Source: Aquirufa salirivi
Lineage (GTDB): Bacteria > Bacteroidota > Bacteroidia > Cytophagales > Spirosomataceae
NCBI RefSeq assembly: GCF_045310485.1
Contig: NZ_JBEWZH010000006.1
Span: 38,785 to 62,784, forward strand
Direction: 5' to 3'
Length of the DNA: 24,000 nt
Positions 15,386 to 24,000 of the stretch are shown here, piece after piece. The notes beneath the pieces were generated by a model. It was given only the letters and a program-made list of their open reading frames with translations, ran no database searches and was not told the origin of the DNA. Both the position numbers and the translations under genes were made by a program. The first letter of the stretch is position 1, and every line of letters begins with the position of its first letter.

Positions 15386-16579
15386 TCATTCTTTTTTAAT
15401 TAATCGTTTTAGTAACAAAAAACTAGAATTTAAAAAACCCGAGAATGAATAAGCATTTGGATAATGATCCATTCGTTTTAATGTTTTAAAATATTTTAGA
15501 TAGACTATTATATGTTTGAAATAAGCGAAATCTTTATCTTGAAATTGGGTTGTTAAATATAAATGTCTTAACGTTAAAGCTCTATTACTACCCCAGTAGG
15601 AGGCTTTTTCCCATTCCTTAACGATTAAATCAATTTTAGAGCAATCAAAGTTATCCAAGTAATTATCTAAAATGGGCGGTAATTTGTAATCTAAATAAGA
15701 TTTCAAGATGGATAAAGCATTTTTGAATGCTGTTGTTAATCTGTAATCATCAACTAGTGATATAACTAATTCCCAATTGATTTTTTTATCATATTGATAC
15801 ATGAATGCATGAAAGTCTTGAATGTGTCTTAGTCTAAACCAAGATTCTTTTCCTCCATGGTGTGCTAATAACATCCAAAATAAGCCTTCTGAATTAAGCT
15901 GTTGAGTTTCAATGCCATTAAATTTCAATTTTTCGGTTAAATCAAATACTCGATCTATTAATGGTTTTTTCTCTTGATACTTTTGATAAAAAAAGTGCTG
16001 AAATAAATCCCAATGAAAATCTAGATTTATGATTCCTTTTTGTAAATGAATTTCATTGTGTAAACTTTGATTGACAATTAACTCTTTTAAATCTTCAGGA
16101 AGAATATTTAGATGGCTAAGATTAGGTGAATTGATTCTGTAACCATCTTGAAGTAAAATTTCTAATCCTTGGATAAGATGTTTTTTTTCAATTAGAACAT
16201 CTAAATCTGAAGTAGTTCGTACTTGTTTGTTTTGATATATCCCTTGAATCAAGATATTTCCCTTTAATACCAATAAGGGAATCTGATGTTCTGAAAATAG
16301 TTTTAAAAGTCGAGTTGTCTCCGCGGCATATTGCAAATTTTTAACAACTTGCTGAGCCATAAATAATTTCACCTCAGTTCGGATGCTCTCAGCCATGAAT
16401 TTTTCCTTTCTTTCATAGGAAAATATAAGCGCTTGAATTCCGTGATAACGATACAATTTTGATAATCTACCCGTATCGTAGGGTAAATCAGTAAAAATAG
16501 GTGCAAATCCTTCCTGTTCAAATTGATTTGTGATTGCCTGGATAAGTATGTCTAATTCGGGGGAAAACTCTTTTTTCAT
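15386..16579 (-). CDS. Nucleotidyltransferase-family protein (PF14907-like), putative lasso-peptide tailoring enzyme
   Basis: About 397 aa. It shows the pattern seen in 'uncharacterised nucleotidyltransferase' proteins: LLVLKGNIL...RTTSDLDVLI...DFHWDL. The start is set to the ATG at 16579, which overlaps the ABC stop in TGATG. Family call is by recollection of the motif pattern. Confidence 0.6.
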   Translation of the reverse strand: MKKEFSPELDILIQAITNQFEQEGFAPIFTDLPYDTGRLSKLYRYHGIQALIFSYERKEKFMAESIRTEVKLFMAQQVVKNLQYAAETTRLLKLFSEHQIPLLVLKGNILIQGIYQNKQVRTTSDLDVLIEKKHLIQGLEILLQDGYRINSPNLSHLNILPEDLKELIVNQSLHNEIHLQKGIINLDFHWDLFQHFFYQKYQEKKPLIDRVFDLTEKLKFNGIETQQLNSEGLFWMLLAHHGGKESWFRLRHIQDFHAFMYQYDKKINWELVISLVDDYRLTTAFKNALSILKSYLDYKLPPILDNYLDNFDCSKIDLIVKEWEKASYWGSNRALTLRHLYLTTQFQDKDFAYFKHIIVYLKYFKTLKRMDHYPNAYSFSGFLNSSFLLLKRLIKKE

Positions 16580-18342
16580 CACACCAGTTGTTGGTCATAT
16601 AGTTGTTTGAATAGGCCATTCTTGTTTTTTAACTCATGAAAGCTTCCCTTTTCTACAATTTTGCCTTCATCCATGACATAGATATAATCAGCTAGTTTTA
16701 GGTTGTAAAGTCGATGTGTAATAATAATGGTCGCTCTATGAGCAGCTATTTTTTTAAAATTTTGAAATATGGTTGCTTCTGAAATGGCATCCAATGCACT
16801 AGTGGGTTCATCTAAGACAATGAGATGAGCTGGTCTATAAAAAGCTCTAGCGATGGCTAATTTCTGCCATTGGCCTCCACTGATCTGTTCGCCACCTGCA
16901 AAAATTTTCCCTAATCTCGTCTCATATGATTGTGGAAGTTGTTGGATGAATTCGTCAGCGTCCGCTAATCGTGCAGCTTCTTGGATTGCCTCCATATCGA
17001 TAGGCTGATCTAAATTGCCCATGGCAATAATTTCTTTGATTTGTAAAAAGTATTTTTCAAAATCTTGAAAGACAAATAGGCTGTTTTGCTTAAATTGGTC
17101 AGCATTTAATTCCTGATAGCGATGACCATTCCAAGTGATTTCACCTTGACTTGGACTATATAATCCAGCTAGTAGTTTGATTAAAGTCGTCTTTCCTGCT
17201 CCATTCATCCCTACAATAGCAATAGTTTGACCTATCTGACAGGTTAGATTAATCTGTTCTAATGTTTTTCGAGTTGATCCTGGATATTGGAAATCTACAT
17301 GCTTAATTTCTAGGCCTTGTCCTGTATTTTCCATTGGTATTGTTCCATGGATAGGTTTATCCCGATCCAATGTGAGGAATTGGTTAAAATCTTGTATGAA
17401 TCGACGCTGTTGGAATAACTGGAGTAATGAATTTAATAGATTTTTTAGGGTACTTTGAATTCTTTGAATACCCTGGATATATACGATGAATAAACTTATA
17501 CCAATGGATTGTGTAAAAGCCATTTGAGCTAGTTCGTACAGAATATAAAACAAGATGGACAATTCAAGTAGTTCTGTCAAAAAACCTAAACTGATTAACT
17601 TCATTTGAAGCGAATTCTTTTTAAGGAAAATGAAGGTTTTTATTTCCTTTAAACGACTTAGAAGATAAGTTCCAAAATTGAGTGTTCGCAATTCTTTGGC
17701 ATAAGCGCTGCCTGTCAGTAAATGTATTAAATAATAAGACTCTCTTTCTTTGCTAACTAATTGTTTATCAAGTCGATGTAAAGCAAAACCTGAATACCAT
17801 TTGATCATGCTTAATGGAGCAGCGACAAATAATATTAACCACGCATAAGTTTTGATAAGGGTAAAAAAATAGAACATTAGTACGGTAAAAGTCAACAATT
17901 GCGTCAAGAATGATTTGAAGTTTTGGTAAATCAAAGGCAGATTTTGTTGTGATTGTTGCTGCGCTATATGTAAGGAGTCTTGATATTGGGCTTCTTCGTA
18001 ATACGTATAGGGTATTGCGATAGCCTTGTTTAAAATTTTATAAACGATTTCATTCGTTATTTTTTGCTCTTGAATAAATGAAATGTAGTTATCTACGTTA
18101 GTTAATAATGATTGAAAAATTTGTAATACAATCAATAGTGCAATCCAAGTTAAAATAGAATTAAAACTAGTCTGAGAAAGGTGGTTAAAATGATCAAATA
18201 TGTTTTTAGTTACAAATAAAAGTGCCGTTGGAATCAAAGCTGAAATCACAGCTATTAGAAACTGGAATAGCGTATTCTTCTTATTTAATCCAAATAATAG
18301 CTTATAAACCAGTAAGAAATCTCGAATGATGTTGAATTTCAA
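16579..18342 (-). CDS. ABC transporter, fused permease/ATPase (lasso peptide exporter, D-type)
   Basis: 587 aa. The N-terminal TM domain is followed by Walker A GMNGAGKTT, signature ISGGQWQK, Walker B LIVLDEPTS and H-loop ITHRL. Only a TTG start (18342) is available; the first in-frame ATG is codon 156. Confidence 0.85.
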   Translation of the reverse strand: MKFNIIRDFLLVYKLLFGLNKKNTLFQFLIAVISALIPTALLFVTKNIFDHFNHLSQTSFNSILTWIALLIVLQIFQSLLTNVDNYISFIQEQKITNEIVYKILNKAIAIPYTYYEEAQYQDSLHIAQQQSQQNLPLIYQNFKSFLTQLLTFTVLMFYFFTLIKTYAWLILFVAAPLSMIKWYSGFALHRLDKQLVSKERESYYLIHLLTGSAYAKELRTLNFGTYLLSRLKEIKTFIFLKKNSLQMKLISLGFLTELLELSILFYILYELAQMAFTQSIGISLFIVYIQGIQRIQSTLKNLLNSLLQLFQQRRFIQDFNQFLTLDRDKPIHGTIPMENTGQGLEIKHVDFQYPGSTRKTLEQINLTCQIGQTIAIVGMNGAGKTTLIKLLAGLYSPSQGEITWNGHRYQELNADQFKQNSLFVFQDFEKYFLQIKEIIAMGNLDQPIDMEAIQEAARLADADEFIQQLPQSYETRLGKIFAGGEQISGGQWQKLAIARAFYRPAHLIVLDEPTSALDAISEATIFQNFKKIAAHRATIIITHRLYNLKLADYIYVMDEGKIVEKGSFHELKNKNGLFKQLYDQQLV

Positions 18343-18366
18343 TAGTGAACAGATTTGTTTGTTTTA

Positions 18367-18374
18367 CAAAGCTA
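18367..18374 (-). promoter_or_regulatory. Candidate -7 box (TAGCTTTG on the minus strand) for the ABC/nucleotidyltransferase operon
   Basis: The reverse complement matches TAnnTTTG, 24 nt upstream of the TTG start at 18342. Confidence 0.3.
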
Positions 18375-18437
18375 TCTTATGTCATTGATTTATCTACAAT
18401 CATGATAGATATTCATTCATATATTTGATATTATCAT

Positions 18438-18445
18438 TAGTTTTG
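18438..18445 (+). promoter_or_regulatory. Candidate -7 box (TAGTTTTG) for the kinase-sulfotransferase-B1-B2 operon
   Basis: Matches TAnnTTTG and ends 22 nt upstream of the ATG at 18468. A second match, TATATTTG, lies at 18420-18427. Confidence 0.3.
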
Positions 18446-18467
18446 TAGAATAAATTTAACCTGTTCC

Positions 18468-19385
18468 ATGTATAAATACGTTGCATTGGGAATGCAAATT
18501 CAATCTGAAATTGAAATTCCAGGCTTGTTTCCTTTTGACTTCCAAGAAAGTGGGGACACCGTTATTGTCAAAATAGGTACTGTACCAGAGACTCTTCAAA
18601 ATGAAATATTAGAAGTAAAGCCTTTTTCTTTCTTCAACGAGCGTGAGTTTATATTTCATATTCCAGAGGCAGCAAAATTTTATATTACGAATGGGAATAA
18701 AATACTAATAGAGCCATTAACGGATAATTTGGATGAAGTGTTTTTTTATCTATACACTGGTGTATTGGCTACTGTATTATTTCAAAAAAATATACTTCCT
18801 TTTCATGTTTCAGGTGTAGTTCTTAAAAACAACACAGTTTTGCTTTTTGCAGGACACCAGAGAGCAGGGAAGTCTTCTACTTCTATCATGCTTCAAAATA
18901 GAGGTTATTTGCCATTTACAGATGATACGGCTGTATTACAAGTTAAAAATGGACTTTGTTATGCAACTTCCTCATACCCGATTATTCGGGCAATGGAACG
19001 AACTTTAGAGAAGCAATCGGTCTATTCAGATGACGAAATAACGCCGAAAATTAAAGAAGGCTTTAAGTTTGGAATAAATTTTCATAAAAAGTTTACTCCT
19101 GAGCAGTTACCCGTTAGTGGTATCGTTTTTTTAAGTGAAGATGGGGATGAGGTGGAGATTTCGCCAATGAAATCAACAGAAGCCATTAAATTGTTAAAGT
19201 TTAATATTTACAGAAAACAGTGGGTCAATGGTATGAAAAAAGAACTTCTTGAATTTCAGACGATTTCACAAATTGCTCAGAGTAAATTACATTTTTTTTC
19301 AGTTAAGCGCCCTTGGGAATCCGATAGTTTTGAGATTTTAGCACAAGCCATAGAAGATCAAGTCATTCATCAAATTGGAAAATAA
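18468..19385 (+). CDS. HPr kinase-like (HprK-related) peptide kinase
   Basis: 305 aa. The HprK C-terminal-domain pattern is HVSGVVLKNNTVLLFAGHQRAGKSSTSIMLQNRGYLPFTDDTAVL, comprising a P-loop GxxxxGKS and a downstream DD. It is adjacent to lasso B1/B2 genes, as in paeninodin-type clusters. Confidence 0.72.
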   Translation: MYKYVALGMQIQSEIEIPGLFPFDFQESGDTVIVKIGTVPETLQNEILEVKPFSFFNEREFIFHIPEAAKFYITNGNKILIEPLTDNLDEVFFYLYTGVLATVLFQKNILPFHVSGVVLKNNTVLLFAGHQRAGKSSTSIMLQNRGYLPFTDDTAVLQVKNGLCYATSSYPIIRAMERTLEKQSVYSDDEITPKIKEGFKFGINFHKKFTPEQLPVSGIVFLSEDGDEVEISPMKSTEAIKLLKFNIYRKQWVNGMKKELLEFQTISQIAQSKLHFFSVKRPWESDSFEILAQAIEDQVIHQIGK

Positions 19386-20226
19386 AAAGAATATAGTTTG
19401 GCTTGCTTCTTATCCTAAATCTGGGAATACTTGGTTTAGGAGCTTTATTTCAGCACTTAGAAATAAAGGAGAAGTCGATATCAATGCTATTTCTACTGAA
19501 GGGATATTTTCTCAAAAAAGAGGGTTGGAAGAATGTTTGGATTTGGATGCAGATGAAATACCTGTGTCTAAAATGGATCAATTTAAGCGCATATCTTTTG
19601 TGCACCAATCAAATACTTCTGCCAAGAAGTGTTTTGTGAAAATCCATGATTTGTATTCCATGTCAAAAATTGACCATCAACCTATTGTACCAGAAGAGTC
19701 TACATTGGCTGCTATCTACTTTGTGAGAAATCCGCTGGATGTAACTATTTCAATGGCAAATCATAATGGACAAACCTTGGATGAGACCATTGCCAAAGTG
19801 GTGTGTAATGAACATGCAAATTTGGTTCGATCAGAAAAACATGCGCAAGATCAGTTTCAGCAATATTTAGGCACATGGAATATGCATGTGGAAAGTTGGA
19901 AAAAGGTCACAGCTTTTCCCGTAATTTTTATTCGATATGAAGACATGAAAAAGAATCCCCAAGATTCATTTTCACAAGCTCTGAAACAGATTGAATATGA
20001 GGCAACTGAAGAAGAAATACAATTAGCTTTAGAAGCTTCCCAATTTGAAAAATTAAAAAATCAAGAAGTTGAGTTTGGATTTAGAGAAAAACCAAAAGCC
20101 TGTAAGTCATTTTTTAATAAAGGAGAGGTTGGTCAATGGAAAGAGCAATTAAATCAAGTACAAATCAATAAAATAAGACAATTTAATGAACCTATGATGC
20201 GAGAATTCGGATATTGGGAAGAATAA
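19375..20226 (+). CDS. PAPS-dependent sulfotransferase (cytosolic SULT-like fold)
   Basis: 283 aa. It has a 5'-phosphosulfate-binding loop SYPKSGNTW, a RNPLDV...H segment and a 3'-phosphate-binding motif FNKGEVGQWKEQL. A TTG start at 19375 is forced, because the PSB loop begins at residue 12 and the first ATG is codon 67. It overlaps the kinase gene by 11 nt. Confidence 0.8.
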   Translation: MENKKNIVWLASYPKSGNTWFRSFISALRNKGEVDINAISTEGIFSQKRGLEECLDLDADEIPVSKMDQFKRISFVHQSNTSAKKCFVKIHDLYSMSKIDHQPIVPEESTLAAIYFVRNPLDVTISMANHNGQTLDETIAKVVCNEHANLVRSEKHAQDQFQQYLGTWNMHVESWKKVTAFPVIFIRYEDMKKNPQDSFSQALKQIEYEATEEEIQLALEASQFEKLKNQEVEFGFREKPKACKSFFNKGEVGQWKEQLNQVQINKIRQFNEPMMREFGYWEE

Positions 20227-20231
20227 TAAAT

Positions 20232-20522
20232 ATGGAAAATATGGAAAACATGACATACGTTTTTAATGAAGAAAGAGTATTATTAACCCAATTAGGAGAA
20301 GAAGGAGTTTTATATGATATTCAATCCAATGAATATTTTACCTTAAATGAAACCTTGTTTTATATCGTAGATGGGATTAAAAAGGGACTAACTTTGGTAG
20401 AAATCGGCGAAATATTAATGAGCAAATACGATATCGATGAGAATTTGTGTTATCAAGAAATAGCCAAAGCTATCCAACAATTGGTAGAAAAAAATATCCT
20501 ATTAGAACAAAATAATGCTTAG
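20232..20522 (+). CDS. PqqD-family RiPP recognition element (lasso B1)
   Basis: About 96 aa with the PqqD pattern: EEGVLYDIQSNEYFTLNETLFYIVDGIKKGLTLVEIGEILMSKYDIDEN...QQLVEKNILLE. The start is set to the ATG at 20232 (the track used TTG at 20214). Its end overlaps the B2 start by 8 nt. Confidence 0.72.
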   Translation: MENMENMTYVFNEERVLLTQLGEEGVLYDIQSNEYFTLNETLFYIVDGIKKGLTLVEIGEILMSKYDIDENLCYQEIAKAIQQLVEKNILLEQNNA

Positions 20523-20940
20523 GGTAATTAGTCTTTTTTTAAAATTAAGTTTTCGTAACCAGAGTCTTATTTTGGGGACAATCATCCTATCTGTTTATTG
20601 TTATTTTTTATTTAAAATAAAGCCGACCTGGATTAGATTTGGCCGGATTCACCAAGTTAAATTGGAAACGGGAAAAATTGATTGGAGACTAGTTAAGGAT
20701 ATTCGGGAGTCAATTCGATTAGTAAGTAAAAGATTACCTCTTCATTTAGTTTGTCGCCATGAAGCTTACATTGCTAAAATATGGTTGAATTATTATAAAA
20801 TCCCCTACAAGATTTATATTGGATTCAAATATGGGGATGATAAAAGCATTCTGGGACATGCTTGGACAGAAGTGCAAGGCAGACAAATCACGGGGTTTTG
20901 TGATCCCCAGGATTATGTGATTCAGGCTATATATACTTGA
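20515..20940 (+). CDS. Lasso peptide leader peptidase B2 (transglutaminase-like Cys protease)
   Basis: 141 aa. The candidate catalytic Cys is in LVCRHEAYIAKIWL, the His in GHAWTEV, and a downstream Asp in CDPQD. The size and motif order match split-B lasso proteases. Confidence 0.75.
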   Translation: MLRVISLFLKLSFRNQSLILGTIILSVYCYFLFKIKPTWIRFGRIHQVKLETGKIDWRLVKDIRESIRLVSKRLPLHLVCRHEAYIAKIWLNYYKIPYKIYIGFKYGDDKSILGHAWTEVQGRQITGFCDPQDYVIQAIYT

Positions 20941-20991: not shown

Positions 20992-21144
20992 TTAGTAACC
21001 CAACATATGATCAGAATCAAGTAAGAATTTGAGTGGATTCAAATCGATTATTTCTTCGGTATTCCACTTTTCTAATTTAGGACTTTCCCATTTTTTGAGA
21101 TCGGGAGAATTCGTGTCATCATTCAATAATACTTTCTTCTTCAT
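20992..21144 (-). CDS. Unannotated 50-aa ORF with a lasso-leader-like motif (candidate second precursor or leader-bearing peptide)
   Basis: Hand translation: MKKKVLLNDDTNSPDLKKWESPKLEKWNTEEIIDLNPLKFLLDSDHMLGY. ATG at 21144-21142 and TAA at 20994-20992. WESPKL fits the Y/WxxPxL RRE-recognition motif. The motif spacing is shared with the ORF at 23844-24000. It lies 67 nt downstream of the SET gene on the same strand. It is too short for the supplied ORF track. Confidence 0.4.
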   Translation of the reverse strand: MKKKVLLNDDTNSPDLKKWESPKLEKWNTEEIIDLNPLKFLLDSDHMLGY

Positions 21145-21211: not shown

Positions 21212-21712
21212 TTATTTGTATTTCAATGGACTTATTTTTTTCATTAGATTTCTGTAAAGCCAATAGTTTTCTCCATAAGAAACAAAAATTTCTTCATTTG
21301 GGGGGATATCATCTCTTGCAATAATGGTCATAGTTTCTAGACGAAAATCAAGCTTTTGTATCGTGTTGGGTTTATTAGCATGGTTGTATAATGAACCATT
21401 CCCCAACGCTAAATAAACTTTGTTTCCATGTGTATTACATACTTCGCACTTGCAACTTTGATTAGCCCAAATGTAATCTAACATGGTAGGTTCCGATAAA
21501 TAGAATGAGCGCCATTTTAAAGCCAATAGTCTGGCTTCTTCAATTAACTCCCCTTGTTTGATTAGTTCATTGGAAAAAACACCAAATCCATGAATTGAAG
21601 ATTGACTTAATCTAATTTTAGATGATATACCAGCTATATCATATTTAGGTTCAGAAATTTCACAAGGATTTAACACGGTAAATATTTTTTGTTTGAAGTA
21701 ATAAATATACAA
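21212..21712 (-). CDS. SET-domain protein (putative lysine N-methyltransferase)
   Basis: SET motifs appear in order: GFGVFS (GxG), NHANKPN (NHxxxPN) and EEIFVSYGENYW (ExxxxY). There is a Cys-rich insert, CKCEVC. No ATG start is available: the options are TTG at 21712 or GTG at 21676, and the first ATG is codon 77. It lies 34 nt downstream of the cyclase stop. Confidence 0.7.
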   Translation of the reverse strand: MYIYYFKQKIFTVLNPCEISEPKYDIAGISSKIRLSQSSIHGFGVFSNELIKQGELIEEARLLALKWRSFYLSEPTMLDYIWANQSCKCEVCNTHGNKVYLALGNGSLYNHANKPNTIQKLDFRLETMTIIARDDIPPNEEIFVSYGENYWLYRNLMKKISPLKYK

Positions 21713-21746: not shown

Positions 21747-23630
21747 CTAAACAAATTTGTTTGGGTGAGATTGGATAAATAGCGCACAACTTATTGACCT
21801 TGTTAGATAAATGGAGTTATTGTATGCATTTTTGTTTCTAGGATCTTTAATGATGCTAGCAAGGCTATCTTTCATTTTTTGAATATCCAGATAATAGGTA
21901 ATCGCCTTATTTTGATCGAAAGACTCTAATAATTGTTCAAACTCTTTTGCTTCATTTGCGATTCTAAGCGAAAGATCAGTAGCCTGTCTACCTTTCTTTT
22001 TTTGGTGAATTAAATCATCTAACAATCTACCTTTCATGGCTGTTTTTATTAACCACTTTGGTGTGTCATATCGGTAATAGTATTCGTTGGGAACTGATAG
22101 GCAAAATTCTACTAAATTTTTATCGGCACTCGGATCAAAGGTTTTGATATCAAAATAGTAGGAAAGGTCATGCCATACGGCTCCAATTTTACTGAATTGA
22201 GGATTAATAAATTGAATTTGTTTTTTTTCATTTGGAACTAATTGACGAAAATAGGGATCATGGCCAGATTCCAACATCCTTTTTTCTAAATCAATATCTT
22301 CAGCAAATTTGGAGTTTATGTGAGAATAAGAATCCCAAATTTTGGATTGATCAATACCCATGTATTTTTTAAATTTTTGGGACATGAGCCCAATGTAAGA
22401 GGATATTGTTAGCTTTTCATTGCTATCAAAGCCAATAAGTTGTTTAATTTTTTCTTTGACGGAATTTTTTTCTGTATAACCCGTCCAAGAAATAGTTGAG
22501 TTTCCAAATTGACCTATCAACATGGTGTCAATTCCCTCTTTTCCGGCATTTCGATAAATTTCATAGATCCAAAAAAGATTTCCTGCTGCATGCAAAGGGC
22601 TATGATGCAGATCAGTCATCTCTTTGAGATTTTGAACAATGGAAACCTGCTCACTCCGAATTAATTGTAAATCTACATTACCTAAAAATTGAGCAGTTGG
22701 TATGGTTAGGTATGATTCATTGGTGGCAGTTAGTGGATTAAATAAATCAGAAGTATCCTCTTTTGGAATGGATGTAAATGCTGTTAAAGACTTTCCTTCT
22801 TTTTTTAAGATTTCAGATGCTACCGTGGTGATGGTACTGGAATCAAATCCTGAACTTAATTGGCTTCCGATTTTATTTGCTCCTTGTATTCTATTTCTTA
22901 CCGACTGTTCCAATTTTGCATTAAAGCGAGTCACATATTCCATTTCAGTATTCAGCTGTAGTACAGGAGTGTTTTCAGCTATCCAATATCTTTTGAACTC
23001 AGTTTTGCCATTAATAATTTTTAAGTAATGCGCAGGAAGTAAAAAATGAATGTCTTCAAAGGCTGTTTCATCATTTAATCTATCCCAAACTGTCAAAATG
23101 CCAGCTATATAGCTTTCGTTAATTTTTAGATGGCTTTTGTCAAAATCAAGAAGTCCTTTAAGTAAAGAAGAGAAAGCTATATAATCATGTCCTTTTCTAT
23201 AATAGATCGTACCAATTCCAAATGGATCTCTGGCAAGGAATAATTCTTTAGAATTACCATTCCAAATAACTAAAGTCCATTCACCGTCAATTTTTTTTAC
23301 AAAATCATCTCCTAGCAATAAATATAATTTTAGGAGAAGTATGTTGTTAGGAATAGACTCATCTATTTTCATTGACAAAAGGGTAAATAAGTCCTTTCGG
23401 TTGTCAATTCGACCAGTGGAAATAATCTGGCAATTATTTTCTGAGTATAGTAATTCTTGAGCTTGAAATTCTGTATGGAGAGATCTGGTTTGTACACCAA
23501 TGTGACTACCATGGTCTACTGAATCTGATATTAGGCTAGGGGCAAATTCACTTAAGGAATTTTGTATGATGGGAAATAGATCAGAATTAGTATCTGGGTC
23601 AAATGATACTAAACCGTACAAAATATTCAT
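21747..23630 (-). CDS. Lasso peptide macrolactam synthetase (asparagine synthetase B-like, C protein)
   Basis: 627 aa. It has an AsnB-like two-domain layout but the N-terminus MNILYG lacks the Cys2 glutaminase nucleophile. It carries a PP-loop variant, SSGFDSS. It is clustered with B1/B2/ABC genes. Confidence 0.85.
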   Translation of the reverse strand: MNILYGLVSFDPDTNSDLFPIIQNSLSEFAPSLISDSVDHGSHIGVQTRSLHTEFQAQELLYSENNCQIISTGRIDNRKDLFTLLSMKIDESIPNNILLLKLYLLLGDDFVKKIDGEWTLVIWNGNSKELFLARDPFGIGTIYYRKGHDYIAFSSLLKGLLDFDKSHLKINESYIAGILTVWDRLNDETAFEDIHFLLPAHYLKIINGKTEFKRYWIAENTPVLQLNTEMEYVTRFNAKLEQSVRNRIQGANKIGSQLSSGFDSSTITTVASEILKKEGKSLTAFTSIPKEDTSDLFNPLTATNESYLTIPTAQFLGNVDLQLIRSEQVSIVQNLKEMTDLHHSPLHAAGNLFWIYEIYRNAGKEGIDTMLIGQFGNSTISWTGYTEKNSVKEKIKQLIGFDSNEKLTISSYIGLMSQKFKKYMGIDQSKIWDSYSHINSKFAEDIDLEKRMLESGHDPYFRQLVPNEKKQIQFINPQFSKIGAVWHDLSYYFDIKTFDPSADKNLVEFCLSVPNEYYYRYDTPKWLIKTAMKGRLLDDLIHQKKKGRQATDLSLRIANEAKEFEQLLESFDQNKAITYYLDIQKMKDSLASIIKDPRNKNAYNNSIYLTRSISCALFIQSHPNKFV

Positions 23631-23843: not shown

Positions 23844-24000
23844 TTATTGGTTATATGTTTTCACGCCACCGTCTACACCAACACCATATTTTAAGCCCAA
23901 ATTGACATATTCCCAAATGATGATTTGAGGGTCTATCCAATTCTTTTTTTCATAGGACAATTGAGAGTCTATTTTATTTGACTGTAGGGTAAAATGTTCA
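23844..24000 (-). CDS. Small or partial ORF ending in a lasso-compatible core (best precursor-peptide candidate); the frame is open to the window edge
   Basis: Hand translation from the window edge: EHFTLQSNKIDSQLSYEKKNWIDPQIIIWEYVNLGLKYGVGVDGGVKTYNQ*. TAA at 23846-23844. No in-frame ATG is visible. An in-frame TTG at 23960-23958 would give a 38-aa peptide. WIDPQI fits the Y/WxxPx(L/I) leader motif, and the core GLKYGVGVDGGVKTYNQ has Gly1 and Asp9. Confidence 0.4.
   Translation of the reverse strand, partial: EHFTLQSNKIDSQLSYEKKNWIDPQIIIWEYVNLGLKYGVGVDGGVKTYNQ

What the first reader, a model, noticed from the sequence alone, without database searches (positions are those of the whole stretch)
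21212..21712. SET-domain methyltransferase embedded in the lasso operon
The 166-aa ORF carries the SET signature in the correct order: GFGVF, NHANKPN, EEIFVSYGENYW. It sits 34 nt after the cyclase stop and 67 nt before the 50-aa leader-bearing ORF, so it is probably co-transcribed with them. SET domains are mainly eukaryotic protein-lysine methyltransferases, and bacterial copies are sporadic. I know of no RiPP pathway that uses one. Both candidate peptides contain Lys residues in or near the putative cores (Lys3/Lys13; Lys39). Its start must be non-ATG (TTG 21712 or GTG 21676).
Basis: partly seen in the sequence, partly recalled or inferred. Interest (0 to 1): 0.7.

Follow-up and report, generated by a model that had tools for sequence, protein, structure and literature searches.

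The report
SET methyltransferase in lasso-peptide gene cluster

Summary
ORF 21212-21676(-) is a real SET-domain protein: Pfam PF00856 at 46 bits against a cut-off of 22, all catalytic motifs aligned to viral vSET, and a confident AlphaFold SET fold. It is 154 aa and starts at GTG 21676, not TTG 21712.

It lies inside a multi-precursor lasso cluster of Aquirufa ecclesiirivi, alongside a cyclase, B1/B2, an HprK-like kinase, a sulfotransferase, an ABC exporter and a nucleotidyltransferase.

The gene is not a passenger:
- It is kept in every Aquirufa copy of the cluster, including one at a different chromosomal site.
- It evolves under strong purifying selection (dN/dS 0.06-0.10) and is better conserved than the cyclase.
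- Outside Aquirufa, 6 of 9 context-known lineages of its narrow subfamily sit next to differently arranged lasso biosynthetic genes. Two more sit beside orphan lasso-type precursor genes.

The most likely role is SAM-dependent N-epsilon methylation of a lysine in the peptide tail, in the motif D-G-G-[S/T]-K-[T/A]-Y. This is inferred, not shown. The lysine is frequent but not universal.

I found no bacterial or lasso precedent.

The parts
21212..21676 (-). SET-domain methyltransferase gene (154 aa, GTG start)
   Evidence: PF00856 at 46.1 bits against a cut-off of 22.4. The start is set by homologue N-termini. AF2 gives pLDDT 89.6 and the fold is closest to vSET, PFL0690c and Set7. dN/dS is 0.06-0.10.
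21575..21592 (-). SET motif I, H29-G-F-G-V-F34 (AdoMet-binding GxG)
   Evidence: Invariant or nearly invariant in 113 homologues. It aligns to vSET GGYGVF.
21428..21454 (-). CxCxxCxxH insert (C75, C77, C80, H83), absent from vSET; probable Zn site together with C5
   Evidence: Alignment. C5 and the CxCxxC motif are lost together in P0108, P0115 and P0121. Zinc binding is inferred.
21365..21388 (-). SET motif III, Y97-N-H-A-N-K-P-N104 (NH motif)
   Evidence: Y97, N98 and H99 are invariant. It aligns to vSET F-N69-H70-S.
21260..21295 (-). SET motif IV, E128-E-I-F-V-S-Y134-G-E-N-Y-W139 (catalytic Tyr)
   Evidence: Y134 aligns to vSET Y105 in SYGDDYW. E129 is invariant; Y134 and G135 are nearly invariant.
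21747..23630 (-). Lasso cyclase (C), 627 aa
   Evidence: Pfam GATase_7 and Asn_synthase. The best NCBIfam match is the lasso isopeptide cyclase NF033535 at 223 bits, below its exception-level cut-off.
20992..21144 (-). 50-aa precursor-like ORF ('class III'): leader KKWESPKLEKW, core region LNPLKFLLDSDHMLGY
   Evidence: Orthologues lie directly downstream of SET in L002 (two copies) and in L012-L014. The Lys is His in A. aurantiipilula.
23844..24000 (-). Last of an array of about 14 'class I' precursor genes, cut by the window end; tail ...NLGLKYGVGVDGGVKTYNQ
   Evidence: The full-length 54-aa orthologue and the 13 further precursors are in L015 4280-9786.
20515..20940 (+). Lasso leader peptidase B2
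   Evidence: PF13471 at 53.9 bits. NF033537 at 37.2 bits against a cut-off of 33.
20214..20522 (+). B1 / PqqD-type leader-recognition protein
   Evidence: PF05402 at 43.3 bits. The best NCBIfam match is the lasso PqqD chaperone.
19375..20226 (+). Sulfotransferase
   Evidence: PF00685 at 102 bits.
18468..19385 (+). HprK-related kinase-like protein, 305 aa
   Evidence: A weak TIGR04352 hit. Homologues carry PF27840 ScmC or Hpr_kinase_C marks. TAnnTTTG motifs lie upstream at 18420 and 18438.
16579..18342 (-). ABC exporter (D)
   Evidence: PF00005 and PF00664.
15386..16582 (-). NTP_transf_5 nucleotidyltransferase; its start overlaps the ABC stop by 4 nt
   Evidence: PF14907 at 140 bits.

Best explanation
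The gene encodes an active, minimal vSET-like SET-domain methyltransferase that is a dedicated tailoring enzyme of this lasso-peptide pathway. It is transcribed with the precursor genes and the cyclase.

It uses S-adenosylmethionine to methylate the epsilon-amino group of a lysine in the precursor or mature peptides. The most likely site is the tail lysine four residues after the ring-forming Asp, in D-G-G-[S/T]-K-[T/A]-Y, for example ...VD-GGVKTYNQ in the window. This lysine sits next to the Tyr, Ser and Thr residues that the cluster's sulfotransferase and HprK-like kinase probably modify.

Shown: it is a SET protein with intact catalytic motifs. It is under purifying selection. It is recurrently linked to lasso clusters and precursor genes in independent lineages.

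Inferred: the substrate is the peptide, the residue is lysine, and which lysine it is. The degree of methylation and its timing relative to cyclisation are unknown.
For: Identity:
- Pfam SET is above cut-off.
- The profile matches vSET 1n3j at E = 1.5e-21, with the GxG, NH and catalytic Tyr motifs aligned.
- The AF2 model has pLDDT 89.6, and its Foldseek top hits are small SET lysine methyltransferases.

Selection:
- dN/dS is 0.06-0.10, and dN is lower than for the cyclase, B1, B2 and the sulfotransferase.
- SET is 64-87% identical among Aquirufa, against 52-56% for the cyclase.

Linkage within Aquirufa:
- The gene is present in all Aquirufa clusters seen (L001, L002, L012, L015, L017).
- In A. 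aurantiipilula the cluster lies in a different chromosomal neighbourhood and still carries SET.

Linkage outside Aquirufa:
- Six lineages of the subfamily lie in lasso clusters of different gene order: P0083/L036, P0120/L039 (Algoriphagus), P0108/L123, P0103/L124, L044 and P0087/L125.
- P0097/L040 and L042 lie beside orphan precursor genes with the same KKxWxxPxL leader.
- Only P0102/L122 shows no link.
- Under a rough chance model the probability is about 1e-11.
- The subfamily is narrow, with 9 representatives at E <= 1e-30 among 1.84 billion.

Substrate hint:
- K occupies position D+4 in 25 of 45 class I Aquirufa precursors.
- S-K-A or G-K-S type motifs recur in SET-linked precursors of other lineages.
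- A tail Lys occurs in 5 of 7 SET-linked lineages against 1 of 13 SET-less lasso lineages.

Precedent:
- The SET protein GigC methylates the core Lys of the fungal RiPP epichloecyclin (PMC10540207).
- Lys N-epsilon acetylation of the lasso peptide albusnodin is done by a cluster-encoded enzyme (PMC9266682).
Against: - No lysine is universal. D+4 is Gln in 12 of 45 class I precursors.
- The L124 precursor has a Lys only at the presumed leader/core junction.
- The Lys of the class III peptide is His in A. aurantiipilula, and that peptide is absent from L001.
- Ring lysines also occur in SET-less clusters.
- The tail-Lys comparison is confounded by phylogeny, because the SET-less controls come from other phyla.
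- No precursor was found in L123.
- 18 lasso clusters from other phyla related to this cyclase lack SET, so SET is not needed for lasso formation.
- There is no chemical or expression evidence.
Confidence: 0.55

Rival explanations
1. Self-protection or regulation. SET methylates a lysine of a cellular protein, for example the target of the lasso peptides or a regulator, and so protects the producer in the way resistance methyltransferases do in antibiotic clusters.
For: - Orphan bacteriocin genes are classically kept together with immunity genes. The SET-plus-orphan-precursor arrangements in L040 and L042 fit this as well as they fit tailoring.
- No core lysine is universal.
- All characterised SET enzymes act on folded proteins or their tails (established knowledge).
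Against: - The clusters already carry an ABC exporter, the usual lasso immunity device.
- SET lies on the precursor/cyclase strand between precursor genes.
- I know of no precedent for protein-lysine methylation as antibiotic self-resistance.
- The frequent tail Lys in SET-linked precursors would be unexplained.
Confidence: 0.17
2. SET modifies the peptides at a residue other than lysine (for example histidine, as SETD3 does on actin), or it acts on the leader, or it serves mainly as a non-catalytic peptide-binding partner.
For: - The K/H exchange in the SET-adjacent class III peptide, LNPLKF against LNPLHF.
- The family-specific 4-Cys insert and, in long forms, a 50-70 aa N-terminal extension without any Pfam match. 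These could be substrate-recognition elements.
Against: - All catalytic motifs of lysine-specific SET enzymes are intact, and the closest structures are lysine methyltransferases.
- His is rare in the cores.
- Leader lysines (KKxW) are equally conserved in SET-less clusters such as L030.
Confidence: 0.1
3. SET methylates another protein of the pathway (kinase, sulfotransferase, B1, cyclase or exporter) and so tunes its activity.
For: It co-occurs with the HprK-like gene in most SET-linked clusters.
Against: - SET also occurs with orphan precursors and none of these enzymes nearby (L040, L042).
- Many clusters have the same enzymes without SET.
Confidence: 0.06
4. Fortuitous neighbour. A mobile or phage-derived SET gene landed in the cluster and has no role in it.
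For: - The sister clade of the subfamily is phage-borne (L006, L046).
- 18 related lasso loci from other phyla lack SET.
Against: - Recurrent linkage in at least seven lineages with different architectures.
- Retention when the cluster sits at another locus.
- dN/dS of about 0.1.
- A chance probability of about 1e-11.
Confidence: 0.04

Closest known systems
PBCV-1 vSET (A612L; PDB 1n3j/3kma), the minimal viral SET-domain histone H3K27 methyltransferase
   Same: - Both are minimal SET domains of 119-154 aa without pre-SET or post-SET modules.
- The GxG, NH and SYGxxYW motifs align: vSET Y105 to Y134, and N69/H70 to N98/H99.
- It is the best PDB sequence match (E = 1.5e-21) and among the best fold matches (TM 0.84 on the target).
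   Different: - Identity is only about 26-30%.
- The window protein has an N-terminal 20 residues and a CxCxxCxxH insert (C75-H83) that vSET lacks.
- It is bacterial and sits in a RiPP cluster, not a chromatin context.
GigC, the SET-domain lysine N-methyltransferase of the fungal RiPP epichloecyclin cluster (PMC10540207)
   Same: Both are SET-domain genes inside a RiPP gene cluster. For GigC, gene disruption showed mono- and dimethylation of a core lysine. It is the only precedent I found for a SET enzyme tailoring a ribosomal peptide.
   Different: GigC is eukaryotic and belongs to a different RiPP class (DUF3328/kexin-processed cyclic peptides). Sequence relatedness to GigC was not tested here, and recruitment was presumably independent.
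Paeninodin / pseudomycoidin-type lasso clusters (HprK-like kinase with or without a nucleotidyltransferase; sulfotransferase noted in genome mining)
   Same: - The same core machinery: split B1/B2, C, and an ABC exporter.
- The same accessory set: HprK-related kinase, NTP_transf_5, sulfotransferase (PMC9266682; PMC4289311).
- The same KKxWxxPxI/L leader type.
   Different: - Those clusters are from Firmicutes, have one precursor and no SET gene.
- This cluster has about 15 precursor genes plus SET.
- The window's own peptides do not end in the Ser that the paeninodin kinase modifies.
Albusnodin (Streptomyces albus), a lasso peptide with obligatory Lys10 N-epsilon acetylation by the cluster acetyltransferase AlbT
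   Same: A cluster-encoded enzyme modifies the epsilon-amine of a conserved lysine of a lasso peptide (PMC9266682).
   Different: Albusnodin involves acetylation by a GNAT enzyme, not methylation by a SET enzyme, and an actinobacterial cluster.
Known lasso methyltransferases (lassomycin LasF/StspM C-terminal O-methylation; PIMT homologues making aspartimide in cellulonodin-2 and lihuanodin)
   Same: They are SAM-dependent tailoring enzymes of lasso peptides (PMC9266682).
   Different: They are class I O-methyltransferases acting on carboxylates. None is a SET-fold or N-methylating enzyme.

Membership tests
SET-domain protein-lysine methyltransferase (PF00856) | Match to the SET profile above the curated threshold | tested here: met
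   46.1 bits against 22.4, covering the full profile 1-105.
SET-domain protein-lysine methyltransferase (PF00856) | AdoMet-binding GxG and NH motifs, and the catalytic Tyr of the ELxF/YDY-type C-terminal motif | tested here: met
   H29-G-F-G-V-F, Y97-N-H and S-Y134-G-E-N-Y-W align to vSET GGYGVF, FNHS and SY105GDDYW. They are invariant or nearly invariant in 113 homologues.
SET-domain protein-lysine methyltransferase (PF00856) | SET beta-fold | tested here: met
   AF2 pLDDT 89.6 and pTM 0.83. Foldseek probability is 1.00 to 4rz0, 3kma (TMt 0.84), 5h6z, SETD8 and G9a. The pseudoknot itself was not inspected.
SET-domain protein-lysine methyltransferase (PF00856) | SAM-dependent methyl transfer to a lysine epsilon-amine | not testable with these tools
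   Needs an enzyme assay or product MS.
Lasso peptide biosynthetic gene cluster | Asn-synthetase-like macrolactam cyclase (C) | tested here: met
   GATase_7 and Asn_synthase. The best NCBIfam hit is the lasso cyclase NF033535 at 223 bits, below its strict 525-bit 'exception' cut-off. The genomic context supplies the rest.
Lasso peptide biosynthetic gene cluster | Leader peptidase B2 (transglutaminase-like) and a PqqD-type RRE (B1) | tested here: met
   PF13471 at 53.9 bits and NF033537 at 37.2 against 33. PF05402 at 43.3 bits.
Lasso peptide biosynthetic gene cluster | Precursor peptides with a leader and a core carrying Asp/Glu at position 7-9 | tested here: met
   There are 45 class I precursors in four genomes with leader K[KR]xWxxPxI/LxxW and an invariant Asp 7-9 residues after the N-[IL]-[EG] junction. 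The exact cleavage site is not known, and the canonical Thr at -2 is absent.
Lasso peptide biosynthetic gene cluster | Threaded lariat product | not testable with these tools
   Needs isolation with MS and NMR.
Paeninodin-type (kinase-tailored) lasso clusters | HprK-related kinase gene in the cluster | tested here: inconclusive
   The 305-aa protein gives only 18 bits to TIGR04352, whose cut-off is 200. Homologues carry PF27840 ScmC or faint Hpr_kinase_C marks.
Paeninodin-type (kinase-tailored) lasso clusters | Conserved C-terminal Ser in the precursor (the phosphorylation site) | tested here: not met
   The window peptides end in ...TYNQ and ...MLGY. Class I peptides of L015 rarely end in Ser. 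Class II and III peptides of sister species, and the non-Aquirufa SET-linked precursors, do end in Ser.
RiPP-tailoring SET lysine methyltransferase (GigC type) | SET gene conserved inside the RiPP cluster | tested here: met
RiPP-tailoring SET lysine methyltransferase (GigC type) | Conserved lysine in the core peptide | tested here: inconclusive
   K occupies D+4 in 25 of 45 precursors and Q in 12 of 45. A Lys is present in most but not all SET-linked precursors.
RiPP-tailoring SET lysine methyltransferase (GigC type) | Methyl-lysine in the product that depends on the SET gene | not testable with these tools
   Needs a knockout or heterologous expression with MS.

The most novel reading that the evidence does not exclude
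Bacteroidota make families of lasso peptides whose exposed tails carry a short [S/T]-K-[T/A]-[Y/S] motif. Three cluster enzymes would decorate it combinatorially: a SET lysine methyltransferase, an HprK-like kinase and a PAPS-dependent sulfotransferase. This would be a 'histone-tail-like' code of adjacent methyl, phospho and sulfo marks on a secreted ribosomal peptide. It would also be the first SET-domain enzyme shown to tailor a bacterial natural product, with its nearest non-lasso relatives carried by phages.
Probability: 0.3. Interest if true: 0.85.

Novelty: new variant of a known kind. Interest (0 to 1): 0.66.

Why it matters
Lasso peptides are sought as stable scaffolds for antibiotics and drug design, and each new tailoring reaction widens what can be made. 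The modifications compiled in the 2022 review I read include O-methylation, phosphorylation, acetylation, hydroxylation and citrullination. Lysine N-methylation is not among them, and I found no lasso cluster reported to use a SET-fold enzyme.

If confirmed, this would give:
- a new lasso modification that removes or fixes a positive charge;
- a defined physiological substrate for a bacterial SET protein, since the roles I know of for bacterial SET proteins concern host chromatin or are unknown (from my own knowledge, not checked here);
- a compact 154-aa peptide lysine methyltransferase for engineering;
- a concrete, easily testable system of about 15 natural substrates in one genome.

Tried and rejected
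1. Genus-specific passenger. A scan of GTDB genomes with the cyclase gave 18 non-Aquirufa lasso loci, none with SET. The first SET search also found almost only Aquirufa proteins. This looked like a genus-specific passenger. It was overturned by the profile search and by context look-ups.

2. Class III peptide lysine as the target. The Lys in the SET-adjacent peptide (LNPLKF) was considered as the conserved target. I rejected it as the sole target because it is His in A. aurantiipilula and the peptide is missing in L001.

3. Failed scans. Cyclase alignments with distant members were too diverse for the search for related loci.

4. Promoter and terminator scans. These gave only negative information. 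The sigma-70 scan is not suited to Bacteroidota.

5. Long-form N-terminal extension. It has no Pfam match.

6. L123 precursor. None was found.

7. Papers not held. The RODEO lasso survey (10.1038/nchembio.2319) and the paeninodin paper (PMC4919450) could not be read. I therefore cannot exclude that SET is listed in a supplementary co-occurrence table there.

8. NCBIfam. It has no model that names this SET protein.

Full report
**1. The observation**

The minus-strand ORF 21212-21712 exists and its translation carries GFGVF, NHANKPN and EEIFVSYGENYW in order. Pfam SET (PF00856) matches it end to end at 46.1 bits, against a gathering score of 22.4, with E = 7e-12. The stated distances of 34 nt to the cyclase stop and 67 nt to the 50-aa ORF are correct.

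Fourteen close homologues start at MLNxC or MNxC, which aligns with the GTG at 21676. The protein is therefore 154 aa and the gap to the cyclase is 70 nt.

**2. What the protein is**

A profile of the family finds PBCV-1 vSET (1n3j) as the best solved relative, at E = 1.5e-21. The motifs align as follows:

| Window SET | vSET |
|---|---|
| HGFGVF | GGYGVF |
| Y-N98-H99 | F-N69-H70 |
| S-Y134-GENYW | S-Y105-GDDYW |

These positions are invariant or nearly so across 113 homologues.

AlphaFold2 with that alignment gives pLDDT 89.6 and pTM 0.83. Foldseek places the model with small SET lysine methyltransferases: P. falciparum PFL0690c, vSET (TM 0.84 on the target), S. pombe Set7, then SETD8, G9a and MLL.

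The family has an insert that vSET lacks, C75-x-C77-x2-C80-x2-H83. The three Cys and an N-terminal C5 are lost together in one subclade (P0108, P0115, P0121). This suggests a four-ligand zinc site, which is an inference.

**3. Where it sits**

The window is about 97% identical to Aquirufa ecclesiirivi 50A-KIRBA (L015). SET lies inside a lasso cluster with three transcription units.

| Strand | Genes (window coordinates) |
|---|---|
| minus | precursor genes, cyclase C (21747-23630), SET, 50-aa precursor-like ORF (20992-21144) |
| plus, convergent | HprK-like protein (18468-19385), sulfotransferase, PqqD/B1, B2 (to 20940) |
| minus | ABC exporter, NTP_transf_5 (18342-15386) |

These assignments rest. 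The window ends inside the last precursor gene. In L015 the array upstream of C holds 14 precursor genes and is preceded by an APS kinase.

No terminator-like site and no Bacteroidota-type TAnnTTTG motif lies between C, SET and the 50-aa ORF. Such motifs do flank the divergent 18343-18467 region. Co-transcription of SET with C is therefore plausible but not shown.

**4. Is SET part of the cluster or a neighbour?**

*Within Aquirufa.* Every copy of the cluster has SET in the same place: A. ecclesiirivi, A. beregesia, A. nivalisilvae, A. aurantiipilula and a second 'ecclesiirivi' assembly. Precursor genes often lie on both sides of it. In A. aurantiipilula the whole cluster lies in a different chromosomal neighbourhood, among mercury and copper genes, and still contains SET.

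SET is 64-87% identical between species while the cyclase is 52-56%. Its dN/dS is 0.06-0.10 and its dN is among the lowest in the cluster.

*Outside Aquirufa.* Eighteen lasso loci from other phyla, retrieved with the cyclase, lack SET. SET is therefore not a general lasso gene.

A profile search for SET relatives and context look-ups showed that the narrow subfamily at 42-57% identity is again lasso-linked.

| Lineage | Locus | Neighbouring genes |
|---|---|---|
| P0083 | L036 | C, a precursor, sulfotransferase, HprK-like, APS kinase, CysND |
| P0120 (Algoriphagus boseongensis) | L039 | C, ABC, HprK-like, PqqD, B2, precursor, NTP_transf_5, PhyH, SET, all on one strand |
| P0108 | L123 | SET immediately after C |
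| P0103 | L124 | SET, NTP_transf_5, PqqD, B2, C, precursor, P450 |
| P0087 | L125 | lasso biosynthetic genes |
| metagenome fragment | L044 | lasso cluster fragment |
| P0097 | L040 | no biosynthetic genes within 8-10 kb; orphan ORFs with the same KKxWxxPxL leader |
| metagenome locus | L042 | no biosynthetic genes within 8-10 kb; an orphan ORF with the same leader |
| P0102 | L122 | no lasso link |

That is 6 of 9 lineages next to biosynthetic genes and 8 of 9 next to some lasso element. Under a rough model of 30 kb per 4 Mb, the chance probability is about 1e-11.

More distant SET proteins at 30-40% identity, in about 75 metagenomic loci, are never lasso-linked. In a neighbour-joining tree the lasso-linked proteins form one cellular clade. 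Its sister group is a set of short SET proteins on phage-like contigs with HNH endonuclease, Dcm and lysozyme-like genes. The subfamily is small, with 9 representatives at E <= 1e-30 among 1.84 billion.

**5. What it most likely does**

The catalytic motifs, the fold, the selection and the repeated linkage to precursor genes all point the same way. The linkage holds even where no other pathway gene is nearby. The simplest reading is a tailoring enzyme that methylates a lysine of the peptides.

I examined forty-five class I precursors from four Aquirufa genomes. They share K[KR]xWxxPx[IL]xxW...N[IL][EG], then 7-8 Gly-rich residues, an invariant Asp, and then G-G-[S/T]-K/Q-[T/A]-Y. The position four residues after the Asp is Lys in 25, Gln in 12 and Arg in 2. 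The window's own peptide reads ...VD-GGVKTYNQ.

Similar small-K-small motifs occur in SET-linked precursors elsewhere:
- SKAS in L036
- SKAY in L040
- GKSL in L039 and L042
- SVKGT and FKGA in L125

A tail Lys is seen in 5 of 7 SET-linked lineages against 1 of 13 SET-less lasso lineages (Fisher p = 0.007). However, the controls come from other phyla, so this is only suggestive.

The candidate Lys neighbours the Tyr, Ser and Thr that the sulfotransferase and kinase may modify. That part is speculation.

Several points count against a simple story:
- No Lys is universal.
- The L124 precursor has a Lys only at the leader/core junction.
- The Lys of the SET-adjacent class III peptide is His in one species.
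- That class III peptide is missing in another species.

I put about 0.9 on 'SET is a functional component of this cluster family'. I put about 0.55 on 'it N-methylates a lysine of the peptides'.

**6. Rivals**

- Producer immunity or regulation through methylation of a cellular protein, at about 0.17. Orphan bacteriocin genes are typically kept with immunity genes, so L040 and L042 do not exclude this.
- Action on another residue, on the leader, or a binding role, at about 0.1.
- Methylation of another pathway protein, at about 0.06.
- A fortuitous neighbour, at about 0.04. This is now strongly disfavoured.

**7. Comparison with what is known**

The enzyme works like, and passes the sequence and fold tests for, a minimal vSET-type SET lysine methyltransferase. 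Its activity is untested.

The cluster is of the paeninodin/pseudomycoidin kind, with split B1/B2, an HprK-like kinase and a nucleotidyltransferase. A sulfotransferase in such clusters was noted in early genome mining (PMC9266682; PMC4289311). It differs in its large precursor array and in having SET.

The 2022 review of lasso modifications lists only O-methyltransferases, plus Lys acetylation in albusnodin. It lists no N-methylation and no SET enzyme.

Full-text searches for 'lasso peptide' with 'SET domain', 'lysine methyltransferase', PF00856 or Aquirufa found nothing relevant.

One precedent exists outside bacteria.

Two key lasso genome-mining papers were not available to me. A mention in their supplementary tables cannot be excluded.

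**8. Verdict**

This is a real and non-trivial feature. It is a new variant of a known kind: a lasso cluster family with a SET-fold tailoring candidate. It is well supported as a cluster component and directly testable by mass spectrometry. Interest is 0.66.

Noticed in passing
window 23844-24000; L015 4280-9786: The cluster has an unusually large precursor array: 14 tandem precursor genes upstream of the cyclase in the 97%-identical genome, and 6-14 in sister species. The cores are hypervariable around an invariant Asp with a ...DGGxK/Q[TA]Y tail. The window shows only the last, truncated gene.
   Followed up: partly
window 21747-23630 versus L017 (A. nivalisilvae): Conservation is mosaic. 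Between these two genomes SET is 91%, the HprK-like protein 88%, the sulfotransferase 84% and B2 77% identical, but the cyclase is only 53%. This suggests recombination or replacement of the cyclase-plus-precursor module inside an otherwise conserved cluster.
   Followed up: partly
window 20992-21144; L002 10591-10986; L012 10549-10701: There is a second kind of precursor-like peptide directly downstream of SET. It has a normal leader (KKWESPKLExW) but an unrelated hydrophobic core, LNPL[K/H]FL[IL]xxD.... Whether it becomes a lasso peptide is unclear. It is absent from L001.
   Followed up: partly
L006 (1-4104) and L046 (4000-11291): The closest SET relatives outside the lasso-linked clade (45-49% identity, 138-156 aa) sit on phage-like contigs with HNH endonuclease, cytosine methyltransferase, ParB-like and lysozyme-like genes. 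They are bacteriophage counterparts of chlorovirus vSET with unknown targets.
   Followed up: partly
L036 8524-8775 and L125 16510-16764: A conserved 83-84 aa protein without any Pfam match (...RYNT.SDG...WRL..DG.E.LVN...DWLED.QVFKHHIT..NC...ID..G) lies next to SET or the cyclase in two unrelated SET-linked lasso clusters. It is not present in the window.
   Followed up: no
L015 3645-4217; L001 1116-1688; L036 8781-13055: An APS kinase opens the Aquirufa clusters, and in L036 a full CysN/CysD/PAPS set is adjacent. This implies dedicated PAPS supply for the sulfotransferase and hence sulfated lasso peptides, which have not been described as far as I know. The conserved Tyr at D+6 is a candidate site.
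   Followed up: no
window 18343-18467: This is a divergent intergenic region between the ABC/NTP_transf_5 unit and the HprK-like/sulfotransferase/B1/B2 unit. It carries three Bacteroidota-type TAnnTTTG motifs (18367 on the minus strand; 18420 and 18438 on the plus strand), which are likely the two promoters.
   Followed up: no
window 16579-16582: The NTP_transf_5 start codon overlaps the ABC transporter stop by 4 nt, which suggests translational coupling. NTP_transf_5 is missing from the clusters of A. beregesia (L002) and A. nivalisilvae (L017).
   Followed up: no
long-form SET homologues (P0078, P0087, P0097, P0108, P0120): Most non-Aquirufa members of the lasso-linked SET clade carry a conserved 50-70 aa N-terminal extension (M.D.LK..LE.LL.K.PEL......F.G) with no Pfam match. 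The Aquirufa proteins lack it. It is possibly a substrate- or partner-binding module.
   Followed up: partly
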